Source of the DNA: Patescibacteria group bacterium
GTDB lineage: Bacteria; Patescibacteriota; Microgenomatia; Curtissbacterales; GWA2-41-24
Assembly: GCA_038063735.1 (NCBI GenBank)
Contig: JBBTUN010000006.1
Coordinates: 8,485-72,484 of the forward strand
Direction of reading: 5' to 3'
DNA length: 64,000 nt
Under the pieces are notes generated by a model. The model had not been told where the DNA came from. It did not search any database and worked only from the letters and a program-made list of their open reading frames with translations. Below, in pieces: positions 10,430-63,326 of this stretch. Both the position numbers and the translations under genes were made by a program. The first letter of the stretch is position 1; each line of letters starts with the position of its first letter.

Positions 10430-12403
<1,974 letters not shown>

Positions 12404-12430
12404 AATATAAATATAAATTTGCTGACGGAG

Positions 12431-12505
12431 CCCCTCTGAAATTGCGCCTTGAGCCGTGGCCGTGTATGAATAATACTGAAAAGGCGATAGGCAAAATTAG
12501 TGGGG
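12431..12505 (+). repeat. Copy A of a conserved ~70-nt structured element. It is followed (12506..12531) by an imperfect duplicate of the last ~25 nt of gyrB.
   Basis: The core cccc-aaatt-gcgcctYgagccgt-[variable]-tgaaaaggcgaWaggcaaaaWtYagYgggg is shared with 40893..40961. It has potential helices CCCC/GGGG and CGCCT/AGGCG. The downstream stretch gcaaagaatgcaactctagacatataa resembles the gyrB 3' end gcgaagtcagctactctagatatatga. Confidence 0.6.
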
Positions 12506-12532
12506 CAAAGAATGCAACTCTAGACATATAAC

Positions 12533-13063
12533 ATGGATTCACGCAGAAGGGAACAAACAGCCGTAGAGGAGAGGGGCGGGGCAAAAACAATTGAATTCCT
12601 GCAGAAATTTACGTTCTTCGATAAACCAATCCCGTCCAGTGATGATGAAATTATCGAAACTGCCGATATTGCATATAAAGACCGAGTGGTCGGCGGTTTG
12701 GTGGGCCGTATATTTACGAGTTCCGGAGAAAGAATTGCCGCAACAGGCGCACATATCGCATTTACAATCGACAAGAAAGATGACGAAGTAAATACAAATG
12801 CCGGTGTTACCAGACAATACGATCCGTTTGGAGCCAGGTTTGAAACATCTGTTTTTTACATGACTTTTTCGTCCGGACAAAAATATGCAAGCCTTGGCAC
12901 ACTCCAAGAATCTGGCAAAATTTCGTTTACGGACTGGATCGAGATTGACAAGAACGAAAATGAAGATAAAAACAAGGTCAAAAAATTATTACAACATAGG
13001 AAAGCTCAACCTCTACCATTTCGCTTGCACGAACTTATCGAAGCAAAATATAAAATAACATAA
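12533..13063 (+). CDS. Hypothetical protein encoded between gyrB and gyrA.
   Basis: 176-aa ORF with no recognisable motifs. It starts directly after repeat copy A and ends 2 nt before gyrA. Confidence 0.4.
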
Positions 13064-19900: not shown

Positions 19901-20202
19901 CTTTTTTCAAAAAAAACGGGGTAGAGGCAACCATGCTATATAAAATTTATGAAAAGAAAAAGCCGAACGTTTTAAACGTGTTGCATTCTAAAAAAGTTGA
20001 CCTGGTAATTAATATCTTTGACCCATACTTTAAAAAAGAGTTCGATGATGACTACCAAATTCGAAGAACAACCATTGACTACGCAATTCCGCTACTCACC
20101 AATATGCAAACGGCCGAACTTTTCGTCCAAAGTATCAAAGAAAAAAAACTCAGTGATTTAAAAACTAAACCCTGGCAATCATACGTCAAATTTCAGAATT
20201 AA
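16912..20202 (+). CDS. carB: Carbamoyl-phosphate synthase large subunit.
   Basis: 1096 aa with two ATP-grasp halves and an MGS-like C-terminus. It carries a ~35-aa low-complexity insertion at the domain linker. Confidence 0.95.
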   Translation: MKILLLGSGALKIGQAGEFDYSGSQAIKALKEEGHEVLLINPNIATIQTSQGFADKVFFLPVEPYFVAKIIEDEKPDAILLSFGGQTALNCGLELAKKGLFKKYNVKVLGTGVDAIETTEDRELFVKSLNKIGARTPNSFAAKNLQEAKTYAQKIGYPVMIRSAFSLGGQDSGIAANPKDLKEIVSRSLSKVKQVLIEEYLLNWKEIEYEIVRDKNDNCITVCNMENIDPMGIHTGESIVVAPSQTLNNYEYHTLREIAINVIRHLGVVGECNIQFALNPNPQMSTGPALDYRIIEVNARLSRSSALASKATGYPLAYVATKLALGYSLTEIKNSVTQKTIACFEPALDYLIVKFPRWDLTKFVKSNHLIGSSMQSVGEVMAIGRKFEEAIQKAARMLDLGLEGITDDNIPNADYKEPTPWRLFKIAQKIKDGQPIEKIAGATGINKFFLEKIKNITDAENNLKNKKTLTREKLLNLKQLGFSDKRISTLLDSTNQKVKSLRDKYKIAPVTKQIDTLAAEYPAQTNYLYLTYNGTKDDIDSNSKSQTSNTKQYQNQKLQTPNRSKEADFGNWKLEIGNSGKVLILGSGPYRIGSSVEFDWCSVTSAISAKENGFLPIVINCNPETVSTDFDMAERLYFEELSEETVLEIYKKENPLGVIVSMGGQKPNNLTPYLARAGVNILGTSPASIDNAEDRDKFSKLCDDLEISQPPWAKLKSTEDALKFANSIKYPVLVRPSYVLSGAAMNVAFNAQDLSEYLSLASNVSKEHPVVISKFIQNAKELEIDAVASGGNIICQAISEHVENAGVHSGDSTLVLPAQKLYIQTVKKVKETAAKIAKSLNISGPFNIQFLAIDNEIMVIECNLRASRSLPFVSKVLGTNYAKLATQAILGLNPKPINKKLPTTYVAVKAPQFSFSRIKGADPVLRVEMSSTGEVACFGDDTSEAFLKSIIATGTTLPKKAVFISLAGDENKAKFLDSAKTLNTIGLKIYATAGTTAFFKKNGVEATMLYKIYEKKKPNVLNVLHSKKVDLVINIFDPYFKKEFDDDYQIRRTTIDYAIPLLTNMQTAELFVQSIKEKKLSDLKTKPWQSYVKFQN
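18619..18646 (+). repeat. (GGAAATT) x4 tandem repeat inside the carB linker insertion.
   Basis: ggaaattggaaattggaaattggaaatt encodes GNWKLEIGN. Upstream are CAAA-rich low-complexity codons (KSQTSNTKQYQNQKLQTPN). Confidence 0.7.
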
Positions 20203-21166
20203 CCTTCTTGTCAACGTAATTACCAACTTGACCATTTCCGCTATGAAAAGCCTTATGGACATCTTTAAGCTGAGAATTGGTAACGTGCGTGTAAATTTGT
20301 GTGGTAGCCACATTTTTATGGCCCAACATTTCCTGGACAGATCTTAGATCCGCTCCGTTTATTAAAAGATCAGTAGCAAAAGAATGTCGCAAAACATGCG
20401 GAGTAGCTTTAACAGGCAATCGAGCAGATTTGACATATTTTTCTACCATACGCTGGACAGAACGTGATGTTAATCTCATTTCTTCACTGCCAAGCGTTGG
20501 GTCGAGGCTGCCGGAATAACGAATGAAGAGTGGCTTAAACATATCTTTTCTTTTTTCCAAATACTTTCCTACCCATAGAGCAGCCCTGTCCGAAATAAAC
20601 ACAATCCTTTGTTTTTGCCCCTTGCCAATAATTCCAAATTCACGTCTCTCGAGGTTAATTGAGTCACGGTTTAATTTGCAAAGCTCCGAGACACGAAGAC
20701 CTGTCGAAAATAACATTTCAAGAAGTGACTTATCGCGGACTCCAGGTTCTGAGCTTACGTCTGGCTGGGCAAGTAACCGCTCCAACTGATCCCTATCCAA
20801 AAACTTTAATGACCTGCTTTCTGCCTTCGGCAATTCAATTTTGTCCGGCGTAACAACTTTTAAATCCTTCTTAACCAAATAGCGCAAAAAGGATCGCAGT
20901 GAAATAACATAATAATTTTGGGTAACCTTTTTTAGGGGCAAATTACCGTTCGTGCTTAAAAAGTGGGCTAAATACACTCGATACTTCCTTATTAAATCGA
21001 CTGTTAAGTCTTGAGGCTTGGAAATAGGCGCATTTCCCTTCTGCCAATCGTCAAAAAACTCCAAGTAATGTCGATAGTCGCGAATAGTAAGAGGGGAGAG
21101 GTTTCGCTCAATTTCGCAATATTCTAAGAAGTCGATGATCTGGGCAGTTAAATCAAACATAAACAA
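20186..21166 (-). CDS. Tyrosine site-specific recombinase, XerC/XerD-like.
   Basis: 326 aa with an N-terminal SAM-like domain. The C-terminus reads HVLRHSFATDLLINGADLRSVQEMLGHKNVATTQIYTHV, giving the R..HxxR..Y catalytic residues. It overlaps the carB end by 17 nt. Confidence 0.85.
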   Translation of the reverse strand: MFMFDLTAQIIDFLEYCEIERNLSPLTIRDYRHYLEFFDDWQKGNAPISKPQDLTVDLIRKYRVYLAHFLSTNGNLPLKKVTQNYYVISLRSFLRYLVKKDLKVVTPDKIELPKAESRSLKFLDRDQLERLLAQPDVSSEPGVRDKSLLEMLFSTGLRVSELCKLNRDSINLERREFGIIGKGQKQRIVFISDRAALWVGKYLEKRKDMFKPLFIRYSGSLDPTLGSEEMRLTSRSVQRMVEKYVKSARLPVKATPHVLRHSFATDLLINGADLRSVQEMLGHKNVATTQIYTHVTNSQLKDVHKAFHSGNGQVGNYVDKKVNSEI

Positions 21167-25437: not shown

Positions 25438-26046
25438 TCACTTCCCTTTGTTACTCGCCTTACCCCTTGTACTTTTCTCGCCTTTGGCCCCTTTGTCTCT
25501 TTTGCCCCTCTTGATAACTCCCTTCTGTTTCTCCGTCAACCTCTCCATGTTAGATATTTTTAAATAGTGACATATTGCAACTGCCAGCGCATCTGCCGCA
25601 TCATCTATATATCCGCTTTTGGGCTTTACCAACTTTCTTTTACCCAGATATCTCATTACGTGCTTTTGTATTTCTTTTTTGTCCGACCTTCCACTTCCCG
25701 TTATCGTCGCCTTTACATGTAGCCCTTGATATTCGAATATTGGTATCCTATAGCCCGCAGCAGCCGACAACACTACTCCCCTCGCCTGCCCAACTGTCAT
25801 TGCAGTCCTGGAGTTAACTCCAAAAAACAACTGTTCGATAGATACACAATCAGGTTTATAATATCCTAATAATCTTTTTATATCTTTATGGATACTATAT
25901 AACCTCATTGGCATTTCCATATCCTTTGATGTTACGATACAATCATAATCTATAAGTTCAATCAGTTTGTTGGAATCTTTGTCGTGGATTTTTATTACCC
26001 CATAGCCAGTGGTCGCAGTTCCCGGATCTATGCCGAAAATTATCAT
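25438..26046 (-). CDS. ruvC: Holliday junction resolvase RuvC with a lysine-rich C-terminal tail.
   Basis: MIIFGIDPGTATTGYGVI start, catalytic D/E/D/D positions and a C-terminal KRGKRDKGAKGEK tail. Confidence 0.85.
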   Translation of the reverse strand: MIIFGIDPGTATTGYGVIKIHDKDSNKLIELIDYDCIVTSKDMEMPMRLYSIHKDIKRLLGYYKPDCVSIEQLFFGVNSRTAMTVGQARGVVLSAAAGYRIPIFEYQGLHVKATITGSGRSDKKEIQKHVMRYLGKRKLVKPKSGYIDDAADALAVAICHYLKISNMERLTEKQKGVIKRGKRDKGAKGEKSTRGKASNKGK

Positions 26047-26786
26047 TTTCCCTCTCTAGGTTTCGGCCCGTCATACTCTATTTCATCATCCACTAACCTT
26101 CTCACCGGTTTCTCGCGTGTGGCTTCTTCCACAACATGGGCAACAAGCCCCGGGGTTCTGGCGATGATAAATATTCCTTTGCCTACTTTAGGGTTAAAAT
26201 CCATTTCCAAAAGAAGCGCCGCAATTATTCCATCAATATTAAGAGGTAACGCCTTCCCGCCTCCAGAAAGTTCAGTCTCTAACTTTTGGGCAAACTTTAC
26301 ATACTTTCCAAAAAATCCCAAATCTTTGGCTATTTCAACAAGTGCTTGAGTCCTGGGATCCACACTGTAAACCCTGTGACCAAAACCGCTTAACCTTTCC
26401 CCTCGTTTAGAAAATTCCCCAACCACCTCAGCTGGCACACGCCCGACATATGCCTCAAAATTCTCCATCGCCTTTTCCACCGCTCCACCATGGAATTCAC
26501 CAAATGCCAATATTCCGGCAGCAACCGCTGCCTGCACCGGCGATCCTCCGGAATAAACATTCCGGGCAGCAACAACGGAAGAGGGCGCCACACCATGATC
26601 GATAGAAATTGTCAGTATTGCGTCCAGCATTCTTTCGCTATTTTTGTCCGGTAATTTTCCTTGAAGTATTAAATAAATTGTCCTTGTAAACGAGGGCGAT
26701 TGAGCAAGTTTCGTAAGGTCATAACCATAAACATACGGTTTCCCGTCCTTGTGGGTCGATATAGAAGTTCTGTATGCCTTACCCAT
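26043..26786 (-). CDS. Short citrate-synthase-family protein (citryl-CoA lyase-like).
   Basis: 247 aa containing GFGHRVYSVDPR, the citrate synthase active-site signature. It is too short for a full citrate synthase and matches the size of citryl-CoA lyase / the ACL C-terminal domain. Confidence 0.65.
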   Translation of the reverse strand: MGKAYRTSISTHKDGKPYVYGYDLTKLAQSPSFTRTIYLILQGKLPDKNSERMLDAILTISIDHGVAPSSVVAARNVYSGGSPVQAAVAAGILAFGEFHGGAVEKAMENFEAYVGRVPAEVVGEFSKRGERLSGFGHRVYSVDPRTQALVEIAKDLGFFGKYVKFAQKLETELSGGGKALPLNIDGIIAALLLEMDFNPKVGKGIFIIARTPGLVAHVVEEATREKPVRRLVDDEIEYDGPKPREGK

Positions 26787-26825
26787 TAGCGTATAGTATA
26801 ACTTAAAACAAAATTAATCTTAAAT

Positions 26826-27716
26826 TTAGATAGCATTTTTAATTAGCTTAGGTATATCCTCAAAGTTTTCAGCTACTATTACACCACTTTCTTTTAAAAA
26901 CTTGTTCTTTTCATCCATTGAAAATTCCAAACCTACTATTGCACCCGCATGACCAAGAGCAGTGTCCTTAGGTAAACTTTCCGCAAACTTGCCTGCCAAA
27001 AATATTATCAAAGGCTTTGTAAACTTTTTTTCGCGAACTAACTTTGCTGCCTCTATTTCGCTACTCCCCCCAACTTCTCCAAATGCCACAACAGCTTTTG
27101 TCTGCGCGTCATGTTCAAAATCCAAAAGTAGATCTACAAAAGTTGTTCCAACTAGTAAATCTCCCCCAATACCCACAACAGTAGATTGCCCCAGCCCTGC
27201 ACTTGTTATCATCGACCCTAACTCCGAACACATACCGCCGGATTTGGAAATCACTCCGACAGGCCCTTTACTAAAGGTGATTTTGGCATTCGGTCCGCCG
27301 ATAGAACCAATTTTTCCTTCTCCCGGAGAAATTGCCCCGACCGAATTTGGACCCAAAACCCGAACTCCCGCCTTGCGTGCACGATATAAAATTTTGGCTG
27401 TATCCAAAACCGGAACTTTCTCCGCAAACATATGAACCAGTGAAATTCCAACGTCAATTGCCTCAAGCGCCGCATCCAGTGTCAGTAGTGGCGGTACATT
27501 TACCATAGTCGCGTCAATTGGTCCCACAGCACTAACTGCTTCTTTGACCGAATCAAAAACCGGTAACCCCAAAACCTCCTGGCCGCCTTTTCCTGGGGTT
27601 ACCCCACCAACAACTTTCATACCGTAGTCAAGTAGGTCAACACACGCCGAAAGGCCTGATTTTCCCGTAATCCCCTGGATTAAAACTTTGGTATCTCTAT
27701 TTACTAATATCGCCAT
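26826..27716 (-). CDS. Succinyl-CoA synthetase alpha-like CoA-binding subunit (citryl-CoA synthetase small-subunit-like).
   Basis: 296 aa. CoA-binding Rossmann N-terminus and an ALGHAGAIVG phospho-His loop. Confidence 0.75.
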   Translation of the reverse strand: MAILVNRDTKVLIQGITGKSGLSACVDLLDYGMKVVGGVTPGKGGQEVLGLPVFDSVKEAVSAVGPIDATMVNVPPLLTLDAALEAIDVGISLVHMFAEKVPVLDTAKILYRARKAGVRVLGPNSVGAISPGEGKIGSIGGPNAKITFSKGPVGVISKSGGMCSELGSMITSAGLGQSTVVGIGGDLLVGTTFVDLLLDFEHDAQTKAVVAFGEVGGSSEIEAAKLVREKKFTKPLIIFLAGKFAESLPKDTALGHAGAIVGLEFSMDEKNKFLKESGVIVAENFEDIPKLIKNAI

Positions 27717-27749
27717 TTTTGTTAAGTTCTCGACTTCGCTCGAACAATA

Positions 27750-29090
27750 TTATTCGACCTTGTGGAGAATTTCGTTACTTTTTTCATTTGCCATTTGAGA
27801 TTTGAATTCTTTGGAAAGCTCCACCATTTTTTTACATGCAACAGAAATTGGTGTTTCCGGTCCAAATAAATGGAAATCATAACCCTCTTTTTTGGCAAGT
27901 TTCTTAAGCATTTCGTAAGCTTCCTTTTGTTTTGGCCCGCCTCGTCTTACAACAATTGGGTAACTTGGTCTCGGTTTCACCTCCGCAAGTCCCTGGGCAA
28001 AACCGGCCAAAGTTTCATAAATATCCGTAAAATTAGCAACAGCCCCGGCAACCAAACATCCAGCCAGTCCTTCTTTTGATAATGTTATTTTTGTCAGCTT
28101 CTCGACTTTTTCGCGTGGTGGGTTACCAGAATATTCCGTGTAATTGGAAGGTTTCCCGCCATTTGCAACCAAAGCATCCATAACCAAAAGCGATGCCCCG
28201 CCTCCGGAAGCCAAAACCGCAATGTCTCCACCAAATTCGATAAATGTCGAACCGGCATTTCCCCTGTAATCTTCCACGTCTATTTTTTTTGCCGCCAGTT
28301 CCCTTTTTGTTGGCACAGCTCCCGCTGCACCTTTCGGCAAAACATCTAAATCCCTATGACGCGCCATTCCTGCGTCATCCAAAATTATTTTGGCATCGAC
28401 AGCAATGTAACTTTCACCAACCTTAGCAATCGGGTTAACCTCAACCAACCTGCAATCGTATCGACTAAACGCATCCCACAACCTCATCAAAAAATCAATT
28501 AGATAATCGATATTGTTCGAGCGGAGTCGAGAACCACCACCACTAGACTTCTCGATTCGTCCCGCTATTTGGGACTCACTCGAAGAATAGCTTCCGGTTA
28601 ACATTTTCCTTAGAAGTTTCGGATCCGGGCCCAAAAACGGATTAATATCCACTCTTACAATTTCCTCGGGATTCTTTGCTCGAACCTCTTCAATATCCAT
28701 TCCCCCTTCTTGGGAAAATAACAAAAACGGCACTGCCAAAACCGTGTCGTATGTAATCGAAGCATAAAATTCTTTTTCAATATCCGCCTTTTCCGCCAGC
28801 GTTATAAACCGCACCTCTTCCCCCACTTGCCCTGAGCTTGCCGAAGGGTTAAAGGTTGATCCGAACATTTTTTTACAGAAATCAACAAGTTGCTTTTCAT
28901 TTGTACAAACCTTAATTCCGCCACCCTTACCACGCCTGCCGGAAAGAACCTGCACCTTAGCAACTATTGGAAATTTAATGCGTTTTTTTGCAGCCTGCAC
29001 TTCTTCTAAATTCTCACAAACCACAAAAAACGGGCTCTCGACTCCAACTTTATTTAAAATTTTATGCCCCTCAAATTCGTATAATTTCAT
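27750..29090 (-). CDS. Succinyl-CoA synthetase beta-like ATP-grasp subunit (citryl-CoA synthetase large-subunit-like).
   Basis: 446 aa. The N-terminus MKLYEFEGHKIL...VAKVQVLSGRRGKGGGIKV is an ATP-grasp, and GGDIAVLASGGGASLLVMD is the ligase-CoA domain. Confidence 0.75.
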   Translation of the reverse strand: MKLYEFEGHKILNKVGVESPFFVVCENLEEVQAAKKRIKFPIVAKVQVLSGRRGKGGGIKVCTNEKQLVDFCKKMFGSTFNPSASSGQVGEEVRFITLAEKADIEKEFYASITYDTVLAVPFLLFSQEGGMDIEEVRAKNPEEIVRVDINPFLGPDPKLLRKMLTGSYSSSESQIAGRIEKSSGGGSRLRSNNIDYLIDFLMRLWDAFSRYDCRLVEVNPIAKVGESYIAVDAKIILDDAGMARHRDLDVLPKGAAGAVPTKRELAAKKIDVEDYRGNAGSTFIEFGGDIAVLASGGGASLLVMDALVANGGKPSNYTEYSGNPPREKVEKLTKITLSKEGLAGCLVAGAVANFTDIYETLAGFAQGLAEVKPRPSYPIVVRRGGPKQKEAYEMLKKLAKKEGYDFHLFGPETPISVACKKMVELSKEFKSQMANEKSNEILHKVE

Positions 29091-40615: not shown

Positions 40616-40787
40616 ATTAAAGAAGAATGATATAATAATTAACGCGTTCCATCAAGCTTTTATCATGCCGCGGTGCTGGAAAGAAAGTTTTGGCTCTGCC
40701 AAAAGTGATAGACAGTTACAAATCCTTTTTAATGCTTTGCATTAAAAACATGAGCAAAGAAAACTAAAACGTATAAAAAAACATAAT

Positions 40788-40871
40788 GGCGCGGTGGCGG
40801 AACTGGCAGACGCGTAAGTCTCAAAAACTTATGATCGCAAGATCATGTGGGTTCGACTCCCACCCGCGCCA
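40788..40871 (+). tRNA. tRNA-Leu, anticodon CAA.
   Basis: Manual cloverleaf: acceptor GGCGCGG/CCGCGCC, anticodon stem UAAGU/ACUUA with loop CUCAAAA, long variable arm UGAUC/GAUCA, and T-arm GUGGG-UUCGACU-CCCAC. CCA is not encoded. The supplied ORF 40786..41016 is therefore not a CDS. Confidence 0.85.
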
Positions 40872-40892
40872 CTTAAATACCGTGAGGGCTTA

Positions 40893-40961
40893 CCCCGTAA
40901 ATTTGCGCCTCGAGCCGTATTCGAGGAAAATTGAAAAGGCGAAAGGCAAAAATCAGCGGGG
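40893..40961 (+). repeat. Copy B of the conserved ~70-nt structured element, followed (40957..40982) by a degenerate duplicate of the tRNA-Leu T-arm and acceptor 3' end.
   Basis: Core ccccgtaaatttgcgcctcgagccgtattcgagg aaaattgaaaaggcgaaaggcaaaaatcagcgggg. The following gcggggttcgattc(tct)cccgtggca mimics the tRNA 3' end gtgggttcgactcccacccgcgcca. Confidence 0.6.
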
Positions 40962-41027
40962 TTCGATTCTCTCCCGTGGCACAACAAAAGAATATCTTAA
41001 AAATTTTAAAGAATGATAGGAAATGAT

Positions 41028-61865: not shown

Positions 61866-63326
61866 TTAACATTTTCCGTCCTCCTTGATACTCCCGTCAG
61901 AGTTGGTATGGATACTTCTGCACTCACCGTTATACAAAATCTTAAGTTCCTGCTTACAATCGCCACCAATGGACTGCTTCGTAATAGTTGCCCCCGGATA
62001 CTTTGCGCTAACTCCAGATGGCAAGGTGCCTTGACCCCCACAATTGGAAGCAGGTTGTGGTGGCGGATTTCCAGCTGGCGGCGCAGTTGTTGGCGTTGGT
62101 GCTGGCTGTCCAGGCGTCGGCGGGTTAACAGGTACAGACGAACCTAATGTTCCTATTAAATATCCGGCAAGCAAATTGTAAGCATTGTTAGAATGGTTAC
62201 TGCCTTTACCACCCTTTGTCTGAAATGCGCTTGTCCCGTCTTTTCCACAAAAGTTAAGAATAGCTTGTGCGCCACCGGGATGGGAAGCAATGTAGCGCGT
62301 TACATCATATACTTTTCCCGAAATTATAAGCCAACAATTGGCAAGTGTATTATGGCCGGCGACCTCAGCAGGTGACAAGGTTAAACTCGGGTTTGGATTA
62401 GGATTAGGATTAGGGTTAGGGTTGACTGGGTTCCCAATCACCGGGTTTGGGACATTTGTTGGCAATGGTGGAGAAACCGCTACCGGCGTTCCACCACCCG
62501 GAGACCCGGAATTTAATGCAACGCTTGACCCCAAGTTACCAATAAAATAACTTCCCAGCAAATTACCGGCAAATTGTGAGTGGCCGCTTGCTGGACTTTT
62601 ATCCTTTGTTTGGAACCCGGCAGTGGCATCACGACCACAATAATTTAAAATGGCCTGCGCGCCACCCGGATGCTGGGAAATATAAGATGTTACGTTATAT
62701 ACATTGCCCGAAATTATAAGCCAACAATTGGCAAGTGTATTATGGCTGGCGACCTCGGCAGGAGTGAGTGTCAAACTTGAACTAACCGCCGATACCGAAG
62801 GTCTTGTCGTAGTAAGTGTATTTGGCAGCTTTGCAACGCTGGCACCCTTATCAGACGTTCCAGTATTTTGTGAATTAGCAGACGGCGCACTATCATTTTT
62901 AGGCAATTCGGAACCGAGCTCTCCCATAAAATAATTTGCCAGCATGTCATAAGCTGCCTTCGAATGGTCTTTGTTGGGGTTTTTGTCTTTTGTACTAAAC
63001 GCAACACTTGCATCCTTTCCGCAATAAGGTATTATGCTGCTGGCACCACCCGGGTGTTCATTCAAAAAAGTGCTGACGTTATAAACTTTATTGCTTATTA
63101 TTATCCAGCAGTTATCACCAGATGAGTGTTTTGCAACCTCATCCACAGTCAAATAATTTACAACACCCGAGGAACTCTCTCCTGCCCCACCCGATTTATC
63201 AGCGATTTGTCCAACGATGTTAGAGTTTTTTTTATTTTCGTGGATAATAAATGCAGAAGTTAAGATGGAAATTACCGCAATTAGATAAAAACATAGCGCG
63301 ACACCTACAAAAATTTTTATCTTCAT
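61866..63326 (-). CDS. Secreted protein with three tandem cytochrome-b5-like heme-binding domains joined by Pro/Asn-rich linkers, plus a Cys-containing C-terminus.
   Basis: Signal/TM N-terminus. Three repeats of CW(I/L)IIS(N/G)KVY(N/D)V(S/T)...HPGG(A)...(Y/F)CG(K/R)D(A/G)(S/T)..F.TK. HPGG is the cyt-b5 heme-ligand motif. (PN)n linkers. Confidence 0.7.
   Translation of the reverse strand: MKIKIFVGVALCFYLIAVISILTSAFIIHENKKNSNIVGQIADKSGGAGESSSGVVNYLTVDEVAKHSSGDNCWIIISNKVYNVSTFLNEHPGGASSIIPYCGKDASVAFSTKDKNPNKDHSKAAYDMLANYFMGELGSELPKNDSAPSANSQNTGTSDKGASVAKLPNTLTTTRPSVSAVSSSLTLTPAEVASHNTLANCWLIISGNVYNVTSYISQHPGGAQAILNYCGRDATAGFQTKDKSPASGHSQFAGNLLGSYFIGNLGSSVALNSGSPGGGTPVAVSPPLPTNVPNPVIGNPVNPNPNPNPNPNPSLTLSPAEVAGHNTLANCWLIISGKVYDVTRYIASHPGGAQAILNFCGKDGTSAFQTKGGKGSNHSNNAYNLLAGYLIGTLGSSVPVNPPTPGQPAPTPTTAPPAGNPPPQPASNCGGQGTLPSGVSAKYPGATITKQSIGGDCKQELKILYNGECRSIHTNSDGSIKEDGKC

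What the first reader, a model, noticed from the sequence alone, without database searches (positions are those of the whole stretch)
12404..12531. Conserved ~70-nt structured element inserted at the 3' end of gyrB, with an imperfect ~25-nt duplication of the target
Immediately after the gyrB stop (12403) there are about 100 nt of non-coding sequence. Its core (12431..12505) is about 80% identical to a segment after tRNA-Leu (40893..40961).

Both copies share these features:
- An outer CCCC...GGGG pairing.
- An inner CGCCT...AGGCG pairing around a variable hairpin. Copy B has the clean hairpin cctcga-gccgtat-tcgagg.
- A conserved single-stranded-looking tail aggcaaaaWtYag.

Directly after the core, copy A is followed by gcaaagaatgcaactctagacatataa. 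That stretch is a degenerate repeat of the gyrB terminus gcgaagtcagctactctagatatatga.

The supplied ORFs 12241..12531 and 40786..41016 both translate to a 'LRLEP...EKA.GK' peptide only because they read through this shared nucleotide element. The pattern of a mobile structured core plus flanking duplication of whatever gene end it landed in fits one of two models:
- A small non-autonomous mobile element. This could be MITE-like, or a homing or recombinase-mobilised element that reconstitutes the target 3' end.
- A small ncRNA or ribozyme-like element that spreads by target-primed insertion.

I do not recognise it as any named riboswitch or ribozyme class.
Basis: seen in the sequence. Interest (0 to 1): 0.8.

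Follow-up and report, generated by a model that had tools for sequence, protein, structure and literature searches.

The report
Mobile hairpin element with gene-tail rescue
The ~100 nt after gyrB hold one copy of a ~72-nt hairpin-forming insertion element of Candidatus Curtissbacteria; when it lands in the end of an essential gene it brings a replacement copy of the gene's last codons, so the gene stays intact.

Summary
Window 12430-12507 and 40891-40962 are two copies of a ~72-nt element ("E") that matches no Rfam family. I found about 16 distinct copies, in Curtissbacteria/Patescibacteria wherever the source could be named. E folds into a rod-like hairpin whose outer and apical stems covary around an invariant core.

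E is an insertion. Close relatives have empty gyrB, tRNA-Leu and carB sites. Copies occur:
- in frame inside carB;
- as the distal P3 hairpin of an RNase P RNA;
- in intergenic DNA;
- at the 3' ends of gyrB, rpsG, rpmG, rpsI and tRNA-Leu(CAA).

At gene ends the arrangement is [replacement tail + stop][spacer][E][native tail]. The two tails differ almost only at synonymous sites (35 of 38 nt). In the window, the tail downstream of E is the native gyrB end. The functional upstream tail, the spacer and E form a cassette that has moved between lineages.

Best reading: a non-autonomous selfish hairpin repeat, comparable to Rickettsia palindromic elements, with a previously undescribed "tail-rescue" architecture. 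The mobilising enzyme, and whether the element moves as RNA or DNA, are unknown. The ribozyme or target-primed idea is untested.

The parts
10463..12403 (+). gyrB (DNA gyrase subunit B), host gene of copy A. It is functional as it stands and ends ...AKSATLDI* with stop TGA at 12401-12403.
   Evidence: ORF list. It is 100% identical to P0001, a Patescibacteria GyrB, and its homologues are Curtissbacteria.
12377..12403 (+). Left tail, the one in use: GCG AAG TCA GCT ACT CTA GAT ATA TGA (AKSATLDI*). It is part of the imported cassette.
   Evidence: With the 15 nt upstream of it, it is 39/42 identical to the native tail of the distant lineage L173, but only 29/42 to the nearest relative L171. It is 24/27 identical to the left tail of the occupied allele L179.
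12404..12429 (+). Spacer of the cassette. It contains AAATAT repeats and is not conserved between different target genes.
   Evidence: It is 22/27 identical to the spacer in L179, although gyrB third codon positions are only 49% identical between the two (binomial P=5e-4).
12430..12507 (+). Element E, copy A: a hairpin element with a private 6-nt tandem duplication (GCCGTG GCCGTG, 12453-12464).
   Evidence: Covariance-model hit of 79.6 bits, E=1e-22. Fold of -27.6 kcal/mol, z=-2.5. Covariation across the family.
12505..12531 (+). Right tail, the displaced native gyrB end: GCA AAG AAT GCA ACT CTA GAC ATA TAA (AKNATLDI*). It lies 1 nt before the ATG of the next gene, as in empty sites.
   Evidence: Empty alleles L165, L166 and L171 end AKNATLD(I/V)* with a TAA stop. 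In L165 and L166 the next gene's ATG follows after 1 nt, exactly as here. In L171 the next gene starts 18 nt later. The peptide AKNATLDI is the commonest tail among 120 homologues, including the nearest ones.
12400..12531 (+). Small bridging ORF (43 aa, [43 protein letters not shown]). Its ATG overlaps the gyrB TGA (ATGA). It runs through E and ends at the native TAA.
   Evidence: Translation. The same arrangement is kept in L168 (P0122, 41 aa) and L179 (P0123, 41 aa). A role as a translational-coupling relay is inferred, not shown.
12533..13063 (+). Conserved 176-aa ORF between gyrB and gyrA (no Pfam match). It is the right-hand neighbour of the insertion site.
   Evidence: It is syntenic in L165, L166, L172 and L179.
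40788..40872 (+). tRNA-Leu(CAA), host gene of copy B and intact. Its 3' part (about 40847-40872) is the left repeat.
   Evidence: ARAGORN and Rfam.
40873..40890 (+). Spacer after the tRNA. It contains GTGAGGG (40882-40888), which looks like a T-stem 5' strand and is complementary to CTCTC at 40969-40973.
   Evidence: Read directly from the sequence. An analogous GAGGGTTCG lies left of E in L127. Interpretation is uncertain.
40891..40962 (+). Element E, copy B. It is a divergent copy: its apical stem is weakened and it can form an alternative CCUCGA/UCGAGG hairpin.
   Evidence: Covariance-model hit of 71.2 bits, E=3e-20. Fold of -30 kcal/mol, z=-2.8.
40958..40982 (+). Right repeat: a remnant of the tRNA-Leu T-loop, T-stem 3' strand and acceptor 3' strand (GGGGTTCGATTCTCTCCCGTGGCAC). 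It overlaps the last bases of E.
   Evidence: It matches the tRNA's 3' part at 19/27, with 0 of 5000 shuffles reaching this. Its T-loop TTCGATT and ...GGCA end are as in the empty relatives L176-L178. The flank after it is homologous to the flank after the tRNA in L176.

Best explanation
E is a ~72-nt non-autonomous, selfish insertion element of Candidatus Curtissbacteria (Patescibacteria).

**Shown**
- It is a multi-copy family: two copies in this 64-kb window, and up to two in each 22-kb stretch examined in relatives.
- It has a conserved rod-like hairpin. From the base upward: an outer stem; a 3x3 internal loop; a helix CCUU-GA-GCC/GGC-GA-AAGG with two central G.A/A.G mismatches; an asymmetric loop; and a 4-bp apical stem with a GAAUA loop.
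- Sites are present or absent among close relatives.
- E is tolerated as a plain ~75-nt insertion where the host product can bear it: in a carB surface loop, read in an open frame, and in place of the tip of RNase P RNA helix P3.
- At the ends of essential genes it occurs only as a cassette, [copy of the last 8-17 codons + stop][13-39-nt spacer][E], placed directly in front of the native gene end.
- In the gyrB cassette, the left tail, spacer and E are more alike between lineages than the host genes are. The right tail diverges like the host gene.

**Inferred**
- The gene terminates normally at the cassette's own stop. The native end is displaced and unused.
- Cassettes spread between lineages by recombination, using the conserved gene body as the left arm and the gene end or downstream gene as the right arm.
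- Each displaced tail is therefore a recently functional gene end, which explains why tail pairs differ only synonymously.
- Only insertions that come with a rescuing tail survive in essential genes.
- New sites arise through an unidentified trans-acting enzyme that recognises the hairpin as single-stranded nucleic acid in the sense orientation.
- In the gyrB operon, a small ORF that starts at ATGA and runs through E to the native stop probably restores translational coupling to the next gene.
For: **A family with structure**
- About 16 distinct copies were found with the DNA patterns and covariance model R1, at E-values from 1e-12 to 1e-27.
- 94.6% of cells are paired. Nine of 16 pairs have changes on both sides.
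- The covariation score is 0.383, against 0.134 in shuffles (0 of 500 reach it) and about 0.06 when partners are slid.
- The sense strand folds better than the antisense (p=0.005).

**Empty sites in relatives**
- gyrB: L165, L166/7, L171 (95% GyrB identity), L172, L173 and L175 are empty. The window, L168/9 and L179 are occupied.
- tRNA-Leu: L176-L178 are empty. The window and the orthologous locus in L127 are occupied.
- carB: the window and L165 are empty. L166 and L168 are occupied, in frame.

**Other settings**
- E forms the distal P3 hairpin of an RNase P RNA (cmscan E=7.6e-19). A second such case is implied by P0124.
- Tail duplications occur at gyrB (three lineages), rpsG, rpmG, rpsI and tRNA-Leu (two lineages).

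**Tails and cassette**
- 35 of 38 nucleotide differences between tail pairs lie in synonymous codons. Monte Carlo P per pair is 1e-3 to below 5e-6.
- The native identity of the right tail and the foreign identity of the left tail rest.
- Horizontal movement of the cassette rests.

**Non-autonomy.** The ORFs scanned in the window include no transposase, reverse transcriptase or TnpB, only a Xer-like integrase that is syntenic in relatives.
Against: - No mobilising enzyme and no autonomous parent element were found. No conserved target motif flanks the sites, and there is no fixed short target-site duplication. The transposition step is therefore entirely inferred.
- How the first tail-bearing cassette forms at each new gene is unexplained. 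Yet the same geometry, with the 3' end of E abutting the start of the duplicated tail, arose at five or more genes. This argues for a systematic mechanism I have not identified.
- The strict conservation of unpaired core nucleotides, the uniform sense orientation at all 8 gene-associated sites, and a canonical copy inside RNase P RNA would fit a functional RNA module equally well.
- Evidence that the left tail is foreign in the window rests on few informative sites. For rpsG, rpmG and rpsI no empty alleles were examined.
Confidence: 0.68

Rival explanations
1. E is mainly a functional RNA module. It could be a protein-binding or stabilising/processing hairpin in 3' UTRs and in RNase P RNA helix P3. 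It would be kept by selection for that function and copied to new transcripts only occasionally. The duplications would be by-products of how it was acquired.
For: - About 30 core positions are invariant across lineages while the stems covary.
- All 8 gene-associated sites carry E in the sense orientation.
- Canonical, non-degenerate copies sit inside RNase P RNA (87 bits).
- The sense strand folds better than the antisense.
- Copies under coding constraint in carB have lost core positions.
Against: - Presence is patchy among relatives with 88-95% GyrB identity, at three independent sites. An element needed for expression of gyrB or tRNA-Leu should not be this dispensable.
- The contexts are unrelated to one another: a coding loop, a tRNA trailer, intergenic DNA in antisense to its neighbours in L103, and next to a restriction-modification system in L170.
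- No Rfam family matches.
Confidence: 0.2
2. E is the scaffold of an RNA-guided homing system. The transcript would be scaffold (E) plus a 3' guide (the displaced native tail). It would direct a trans-encoded nuclease or recombinase to unoccupied alleles of the same conserved gene. The resident gene would be protected by its synonymously recoded tail, in the manner of a natural 'cleave-and-rescue' element.
For: - The native tail abuts the 3' end of E within 0-3 nt in every tail case.
- 5-7 of 9-12 codons are synonymously different between the resident tail and the putative guide.
- The targets are highly conserved essential genes.
- The cassette has moved between lineages.
Against: - There is no conserved PAM/TAM-like motif 5' of the target in empty alleles: CAC, CAT, GAG, GCG and GGG are all seen.
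- No nuclease candidate is present in the window.
- The carB, RNase P and intergenic copies have no rescue architecture.
- The scaffold is only ~72 nt, and it is translated in carB.
- The same data are explained by ordinary homologous recombination.
Confidence: 0.07
3. The flank repeats are the attL/attR-type duplications left by a site-specific integrase. Integrases that target tRNA or gene 3' ends leave such repeats because the integrating DNA carries its own copy of the target's 3' end. On this view E is the remnant, or a miniature satellite, of a larger integrative element.
For: - The geometry is that of integrative elements that replace a gene's 3' end with their own diverged copy (my knowledge of tRNA-targeting islands and of e14 in icd).
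- A tyrosine recombinase gene lies 8 kb away at 20186-21166.
Against: - The same E core sits at five or more different targets, each with a matching tail. A single attP cannot do this.
- The whole unit is 114-153 nt and encodes no integrase.
- The recombinase is syntenic next to carB in relatives whether or not E is present. This includes L165, which has no E at all, so it is probably the housekeeping Xer.
- The carB and RNase P copies have no repeats.
Confidence: 0.04
4. E, or the block from the left tail to the end of E, is an intron-like sequence removed at the RNA level. Both tails would then be used and both kept under protein-level selection.
For: - Both tails look protein-constrained.
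- E sits where tolerated or removable insertions are found in other systems: a tRNA T-loop region, an RNase P hairpin and a coding region.
Against: - There is no similarity to any intron or ribozyme model in Rfam.
- The carB copies are read in frame and are drifting as protein-coding insert.
- The left tail with its own stop makes splicing unnecessary.
- No splice-site-like conserved boundary exists on the 5' side, where spacers vary from 13 to 39 nt.
Confidence: 0.03

Closest known systems
Rickettsia palindromic elements (RPEs)
   Same: Both are short interspersed palindromic repeats found in intergenic DNA and also inside protein-coding genes. There they are read in frame as a tolerated extra peptide. 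PMC1779305 describes RPEs as 100-150-bp repeats abundant in intergenic and coding regions, with a 63-84-bp RPE-7-derived insert in pheT. Both are non-autonomous and have an unknown mobilisation mechanism. Both occur in small, reduced genomes.
   Different: - The phylum is unrelated, and no sequence relationship was tested.
- E is shorter, at about 72 nt.
- E has a strongly conserved unpaired core.
- At the ends of essential genes E is embedded in a tail-duplication cassette. To my knowledge this has not been described for RPEs.
REP/REPIN elements mobilised by RAYT (Y1/HUH) transposases, and IS200/IS605-derived palindrome-associated elements
   Same: Both are short hairpin-forming repeats whose structure, rather than terminal inverted repeats plus a fixed target duplication, defines the element. 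Both show strand or orientation bias. Plain insertions have no obligatory target-site duplication (my knowledge of these families).
   Different: - No RAYT or TnpA gene was found in the window ORFs scanned.
- No conserved GTAG-type or tetranucleotide cleavage motif lies at the borders.
- E is a single long rod with internal loops, not a 20-40-nt palindrome or a doublet.
Integrative elements that duplicate the 3' end of their target gene (tRNA/tmRNA-targeting islands; e14 in icd)
   Same: In both, the gene continues into an element-borne, synonymously diverged copy of its 3' end, while the native 3' end is displaced to the far side of the insert (my knowledge). This is the arrangement seen here for gyrB and tRNA-Leu.
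   Different: - The insert here is about 100 nt and has no integrase.
- One core serves many targets, each with its own tail.
- Other copies of the same core have no duplication at all.
Classical bacterial MITEs (e.g. Correia/NEMIS, and the Coxiella MITEs of PMC5896051)
   Same: Both are small, non-autonomous and multi-copy, with inverted-repeat ends that can pair. Both can alter gene ends and be co-transcribed with neighbouring genes.
   Different: - E has no fixed short target-site duplication.
- No related insertion sequence was found.
- E's internal core is more conserved than its termini, the opposite of elements defined by terminal inverted repeats.
Intervening sequences (IVS) in rRNA helices
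   Same: Both are extended stem-loops that replace the tip of a helix in a structural RNA, and both are patchily distributed among relatives (my knowledge). Here E replaces the tip of RNase P helix P3.
   Different: - E also occurs in mRNAs, coding sequence and intergenic DNA.
- Excision by RNase III was not tested.
- E was not seen in rRNA here.

Membership tests
Any Rfam 15 RNA family (riboswitches, ribozymes, introns, sRNAs) | Covariance-model score at or above the family's gathering threshold | tested here: not met
   In the whole window only the tRNA reached threshold. Searches at E<=10 on both copies gave nothing, or a chance snoRNA match at E=6.9.
RPE-like in-frame palindromic repeat (functional class, not a homology family) | Multi-copy palindromic repeat present in both intergenic and coding DNA | tested here: met
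   About 16 distinct copies. Two lie in the 64-kb window and two in the 22-kb locus L168. Some are intergenic (L095, L103, L126, L137, L170) and some are inside carB.
RPE-like in-frame palindromic repeat (functional class, not a homology family) | The coding copies keep the host reading frame, and orthologues without the insert exist | tested here: met
   carB in L166 and L168 carries about 25 extra residues (…LEPSMDNSEEAKDK…) in a variable loop. The window and L165 lack them. Two of the three sense frames of E are open.
Rickettsia palindromic elements proper (RPE-1 to RPE-8) | Sequence homology to the RPE families | not tested
   No RPE models were available. The host phylum differs, so I do not claim membership.
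MITE (derivative of a DDE insertion sequence) | Fixed-length short target-site duplication flanking terminal inverted repeats | tested here: not met
   No duplication is detectable at carB or RNase P. At gene tails the repeat period is 114-153 nt with 27-54-nt tails of variable length.
MITE (derivative of a DDE insertion sequence) | A related autonomous element with the same ends and a transposase | tested here: inconclusive
   None was found in the window ORFs scanned or among the gene calls around E in the fetched loci. Whole genomes could not be scanned.
REP/REPIN-RAYT or IS200/IS605-derived hairpin element | Conserved cleavage motif at the foot of the hairpin, and a Y1/HUH transposase in the genome | tested here: inconclusive
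   No conserved tetranucleotide lies at the borders. The base before the outer stem is mostly G and the base after it mostly C, which is probably one more base pair. No Y1_Tnp was found in the window ORFs scanned. The rest of the genome was not available.
Integrase-mediated insertion (attL/attR) | One attP specificity, with an integrase carried by the element | tested here: not met
   There are five or more different targets, each with a matching tail. The unit is 114-153 nt and has no ORF for a recombinase.
Diversity-generating retroelement (TR/VR pair at a gene's 3' end) | Differences confined to adenines of the template repeat, with a reverse transcriptase nearby | tested here: not met
   The differences include T/C, A/T, G/C and C/T, and are synonymous. 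No reverse transcriptase is present in the window ORFs scanned.
TnpB/IscB-type omega-RNA or other guide-RNA scaffold | Scaffold followed by a guide that matches a target lying next to a conserved TAM/PAM, with a cognate nuclease encoded | tested here: inconclusive
   The scaffold-then-target geometry is present at gene tails. No common motif lies 5' of the target in empty alleles, and no nuclease is in the window. Not excluded genome-wide.

The most novel reading that the evidence does not exclude
E may be the RNA (or single-stranded DNA) component of a programmable homing system. On this reading the conserved 72-nt rod is a scaffold and the native gene end next to it is a guide or homology determinant. 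The synonymously recoded replacement tail makes the carrier immune. That would be a natural cleave-and-rescue style drive acting on essential genes of ultra-small bacteria. A variant of this reading is that E is a new self-inserting or self-processing RNA class.
Probability: 0.08. Interest if true: 0.9.

Novelty: new variant of a known kind. Interest (0 to 1): 0.62.

Why it matters
Candidate phyla radiation bacteria have tiny genomes and are generally regarded as poor in classical mobile DNA (my general knowledge, not tested here). Here a 72-nt element colonises their most conserved genes: gyrB, ribosomal protein genes, tRNA-Leu and RNase P RNA.

It does this without killing the genes, in either of two ways. 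It is readable in frame, or it arrives with a spare copy of the gene's end.

The 'tail-rescue cassette' matters for four reasons:
- It is a compact natural solution to inserting DNA into essential genes.
- It is a clean marker of horizontal exchange between lineages that cannot be cultured.
- It is a source of annotation artefacts, namely spurious 41-54-aa ORFs and apparent extra C-termini.
- It gives a concrete handle for finding the unknown enzyme that moves hairpin repeats in these organisms.

If the element proved to be RNA-guided or self-processing, it would be a new class of mobile RNA.

Tried and rejected
- **Rfam.** Searches at gathering threshold and at permissive E-values found no family.
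- **Genome-contig scan with GAAAAGGCGANAGGCAAAA.** It gave 91 loci, nearly all chance or low-complexity matches, and one real copy (L030).
- **Peptide route to in-frame copies.** A 48-aa two-frame profile found only P0121 and P0122. The exhaustive representative search gave three hits because the profile was dominated by P0121. P0123 and P0124 from that search were still useful.
- **Obligatory long target-site duplication.** Rejected, because the carB and RNase P copies have none.
- **Neutral decay of one repeat copy.** Rejected by the excess of synonymous differences.
- **DGR-type adenine mutagenesis.** Rejected.
- **The S versus N residue in the GyrB tail as a marker of occupancy.** Rejected: L172, L173 and L175 have S tails but empty sites.
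- **A 28-kb island bounded by the two window copies.** Dropped. The genes between them are housekeeping and syntenic in relatives, and each copy has its own empty site.
- **Read-through or in-frame fusion as a general rule.** The repeat period is a multiple of 3 at rpsG, rpmG and rpsI but not at gyrB, and stops interrupt the frame in rpmG and rpsI.
- **Conserved PAM/TAM or cleavage tetranucleotide at the borders.** None was seen.
- **Phage database and viral contigs.** No copies. The single viral pattern hit, L180, is a chance match in a coding region.
- **Promoter and terminator scan around copy A.** Nothing above shuffle expectation.
Full report
**1. What is in the window**

gyrB ends at 12403. 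The next 128 nt contain, in order:
- a 26-nt spacer;
- a 72-78-nt element, here called E (12430-12507);
- a 27-nt near-repeat of the gyrB end (12505-12531), whose TAA lies 1 nt before the ATG of the next ORF (12533).

A second copy of E lies at 40891-40962, directly after tRNA-Leu(CAA) (40788-40872). The two cores share 57 identical bases over 68 ungapped columns. Their shared 20-mers occur nowhere else in the window, against 0.02-0.05 matches expected by chance.

The gyrB tail repeat matches at 20/27. Each exceeds all 5000 shuffles. Rfam has no family for E.

**2. A family with a conserved structure**

One pattern scan of species-representative genomes gave one real copy, in Candidatus Curtissbacteria after rpsG (L030). 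A pattern scan of metagenomes gave nine more distinct copies.

A covariance model (R1) built from 11 copies then found further copies in DNA fetched around gyrB homologues. The window itself is Curtissbacteria. L133 and P0124 are Curtissbacteria, and L127 is annotated 'Patescibacteria group'.

On 15 copies:
- 94.6% of cells form standard pairs.
- 9 of 16 pairs show changes on both sides.
- The covariation score is 0.383, against 0.134 in shuffles (0 of 500 reach it) and about 0.06 for slid registers.

The outer stem and the 4-bp apical stem (loop GAAUA) carry the covariation. The core UUGCNCCUUGAGCCGU ... UGAAAAGGCGAAAGGCAAA is nearly invariant.

The family fits a helix CCUU-GA-GCC / GGC-GA-AAGG with two central G.A/A.G mismatches. 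One compensatory U-A is seen in L170. The sense strand folds better than the antisense (mean -26.0 versus -22.9 kcal/mol, p=0.005).

**3. It is an insertion: empty sites**

*gyrB.*
- In L165 and L166/7 the stop (TAA) is followed after 1 nt by the next gene's ATG, exactly like the downstream repeat in the window.
- L171 (95% GyrB identity to the window), L172, L173 and L175 are also empty.
- L168/9 and L179 are occupied at the same position.

*tRNA-Leu(CAA).* In the conserved NIF3 - tRNA-Leu - DnaB neighbourhood:
- L176-L178 (DnaB 89-90% identical) are empty.
- The window is occupied. So is a much more distant orthologous locus, L127 (NIF3 68% identical).
- E stands at a slightly different position relative to the T-loop remnant in the two occupied loci.

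*carB.* L166 and L168 carry a degenerate E read in frame, adding about 25 residues in a variable loop. The window and L165 lack it.

*RNase P RNA.* In L121, E is the distal part of helix P3 of a type-A RNase P RNA (cmscan E=7.6e-19), with no duplication. P0124 is a spurious ORF over a second such gene.

*Intergenic copies.* L095, L103, L126, L137 and L170 show no convincing flank repeat.

**4. The gene-tail architecture**

At gyrB (three lineages), rpsG, rpmG and rpsI, the last 8-17 codons plus the stop occur twice: once in the gene, and once directly after the 3' end of E, within 0-3 nt. The repeat periods are 128/122, 114, 153 and 114 nt.

The two copies encode the same peptide:
- rpsG: ANKAFAHFRW*
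- rpmG: RKVTEHKELKI*
- rpsI: RRKKQSPKR*
- gyrB: AKSATLDI* in both copies (L168); AKSATLDI* versus AKNATLDI* (window and L179)

They nevertheless differ at 5-7 codons, including AGT/TCC and AGC/TCA serine switches. Of 38 nucleotide differences, 35 lie in synonymous codons. Random substitutions reproduce this with P from 1e-3 to below 5e-6 per pair.

So neither copy is a neutrally decaying relic. Both are, or recently were, working gene ends.

**5. Which copy is native**

In the window, the downstream tail and its junction with the next gene match the empty alleles of near relatives (N-type, TAA, then c, then ATG). AKNATLDI is the tail of the nearest homologues.

The upstream, functional tail plus the 15 nt before it is 39/42 identical to the native tail of the distant lineage L173 (S-type, TGA). 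It is only 29/42 identical to the nearest relative L171. In a sliding window over the last 60 nt of gyrB, identity to L171 drops from about 0.88 to 0.75, while identity to L173 rises to 0.87.

All three occupied alleles share GCG AAG Ser ... ATA TGA on the left.

Comparing the window with L179:
- The neutral-looking spacer is 22/27 identical and the left tail 24/27.
- gyrB third codon positions are only 49% identical (P=5e-4 for the spacer).
- The right tails are 74% identical, like the host gene at 78%.

The mobile unit at gene ends is therefore [replacement tail + stop][spacer][E]. It has moved between lineages, and the right tail belongs to the recipient.

For tRNA-Leu, the right repeat keeps the relatives' T-loop (TTCGATT) and ...GGCA end, and it is contiguous with the native downstream flank. 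The functional tRNA has a different acceptor stem on both strands. This is consistent with the same logic but is less decisive.

**6. How it most likely works**

*Shown:*
- E is multi-copy, with a conserved hairpin.
- Sites are present or absent among close relatives.
- Plain insertion occurs where the host product tolerates it.
- At essential gene ends E occurs as a cassette with a replacement tail.
- The gyrB cassette has been transferred horizontally.

*Inferred:*
- The gene stops at the cassette's own stop.
- Cassettes spread by homologous recombination through the conserved gene body on the left and the gene end or downstream gene on the right.
- Only rescued insertions survive in essential genes.
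- A trans-acting enzyme recognises the hairpin as single-stranded nucleic acid.

In all three occupied gyrB alleles a 41-43-aa ORF starts at an ATG overlapping the gyrB TGA. It runs through E in its open 'LEP' frame and ends at the native TAA next to the following gene's ATG. I infer that it relays translational coupling.

The ORFs scanned in the window include no transposase, reverse transcriptase or TnpB-like gene. The only recombinase is a Xer-like gene that is syntenic in relatives with and without E.

*Not explained:* how a tail-bearing cassette first forms at a new gene. The recurrence of the same geometry at five or more genes suggests a systematic step that I could not identify.

**7. 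Rivals**

- *Functional RNA module.* This fits the invariant core, the sense orientation and the RNase P copies. It does not fit the patchy presence at three sites or the unrelated contexts.
- *RNA-guided homing* (scaffold plus native tail as guide, recoded resident tail as immunity). This fits the geometry and the dense synonymous recoding. However, no common motif precedes the targets in empty alleles, no nuclease is in view, and many copies lack the architecture.
- *Integrase att logic.* This fails because one core serves many targets and the unit is about 120 nt.
- *Intron.* No support.
- *DGR.* Excluded by the substitution pattern.

**8. Comparison with what is known**

The behaviour is closest to Rickettsia palindromic elements: short palindromic repeats in intergenic and coding DNA, read in frame (PMC1779305). 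It also resembles REP-type hairpin repeats.

The tail duplication resembles what integrative elements do at tRNA genes and at icd (my knowledge). Here it happens on a 100-nt scale and with many targets.

I found no description of such an element in the paper library. That is weak evidence of absence.

**9. Verdict**

It is a new repeat family of a known general kind (selfish hairpin repeats), with a distinctive and apparently undescribed tail-rescue cassette. The mechanism of primary insertion remains open.

Noticed in passing
window 12453-12464: Copy A of the element carries a private 6-nt tandem duplication (GCCGTG GCCGTG) in the core helix. It adds two residues (WP) to the small bridging ORF and keeps the frame.
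   Followed up: partly
window 12404-12421: The spacer after the gyrB stop contains AAATAT tandem units (aatataaatataaat). The homologous spacer in L179 has a similar run, which suggests slippage in otherwise neutral DNA.
   Followed up: no
L170 203-274 and about 355-405: A full element is followed about 85 nt later by a second, partial copy. The partial copy consists of the 3' half of the element plus about 15 nt of the same right flank (…AAAAGGCGAAAGATAAGATTCATAGGGTCAAGAAAATATATCAC). So local duplications near the element are not confined to gene tails. The locus sits next to a restriction-modification cluster (BsaWI-like endonuclease, N6/N4 methylases).
   Followed up: partly
window 12430-12507; L030; L133; L150; L168 11956-12027; L179 10031-10102: Apical-stem subtypes do not follow the insertion locus. 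The GUAU…AUAC type is in the window's gyrB copy, L030 (rpsG) and L168 (gyrB). The CUAC…GUAG type is in L179 (gyrB), L133 (rpmG) and L150 (rpsI). This hints at gene conversion or replacement among copies within genomes.
   Followed up: no
window 26043-29090 (- strand): Three adjacent genes have ATP-citrate-lyase / citryl-CoA-type domains: ATP-grasp_2 plus Citrate_bind; CoA_binding plus CoA-ligase; and a citrate synthase C-terminal domain. This is unexpected in a metabolically minimal Patescibacteria genome.
   Followed up: no
window 61866-63326 (- strand): A 486-aa protein matches the cytochrome b5-like haem/steroid-binding domain in three stretches. This is unusual for a candidate phyla radiation bacterium.
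   Followed up: no
P0102 and P0112 (GyrB homologues): Some Curtissbacteria GyrB proteins are about 1076 aa and carry an intein domain (PF14890). gyrB in this clade is therefore targeted by a second kind of selfish element.
   Followed up: no
L168 4691-5044: A gene of the '23S rRNA intervening sequence protein' family (PF05635) lies in the pilus/gyrB neighbourhood of one Curtissbacteria lineage. It is absent at that position in the others.
   Followed up: no
window 40788-40872 versus L176, L177, L178: The window's tRNA-Leu(CAA) has acceptor stem GGCGCGG/CCGCGCC, whereas near relatives have GCCGAAG/CTTCGGC or GCCGGAG/CTCCGGT. Three base pairs are swapped on both strands. Either the whole tRNA was replaced along with the element, or it changed by compensatory mutation.
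   Followed up: partly
window 1-64000: GC skew is negative across the whole window on the + strand (cumulative -4.1). Both element copies point the same way relative to it. Orientation relative to replication could not be assessed without the rest of the genome.
   Followed up: no
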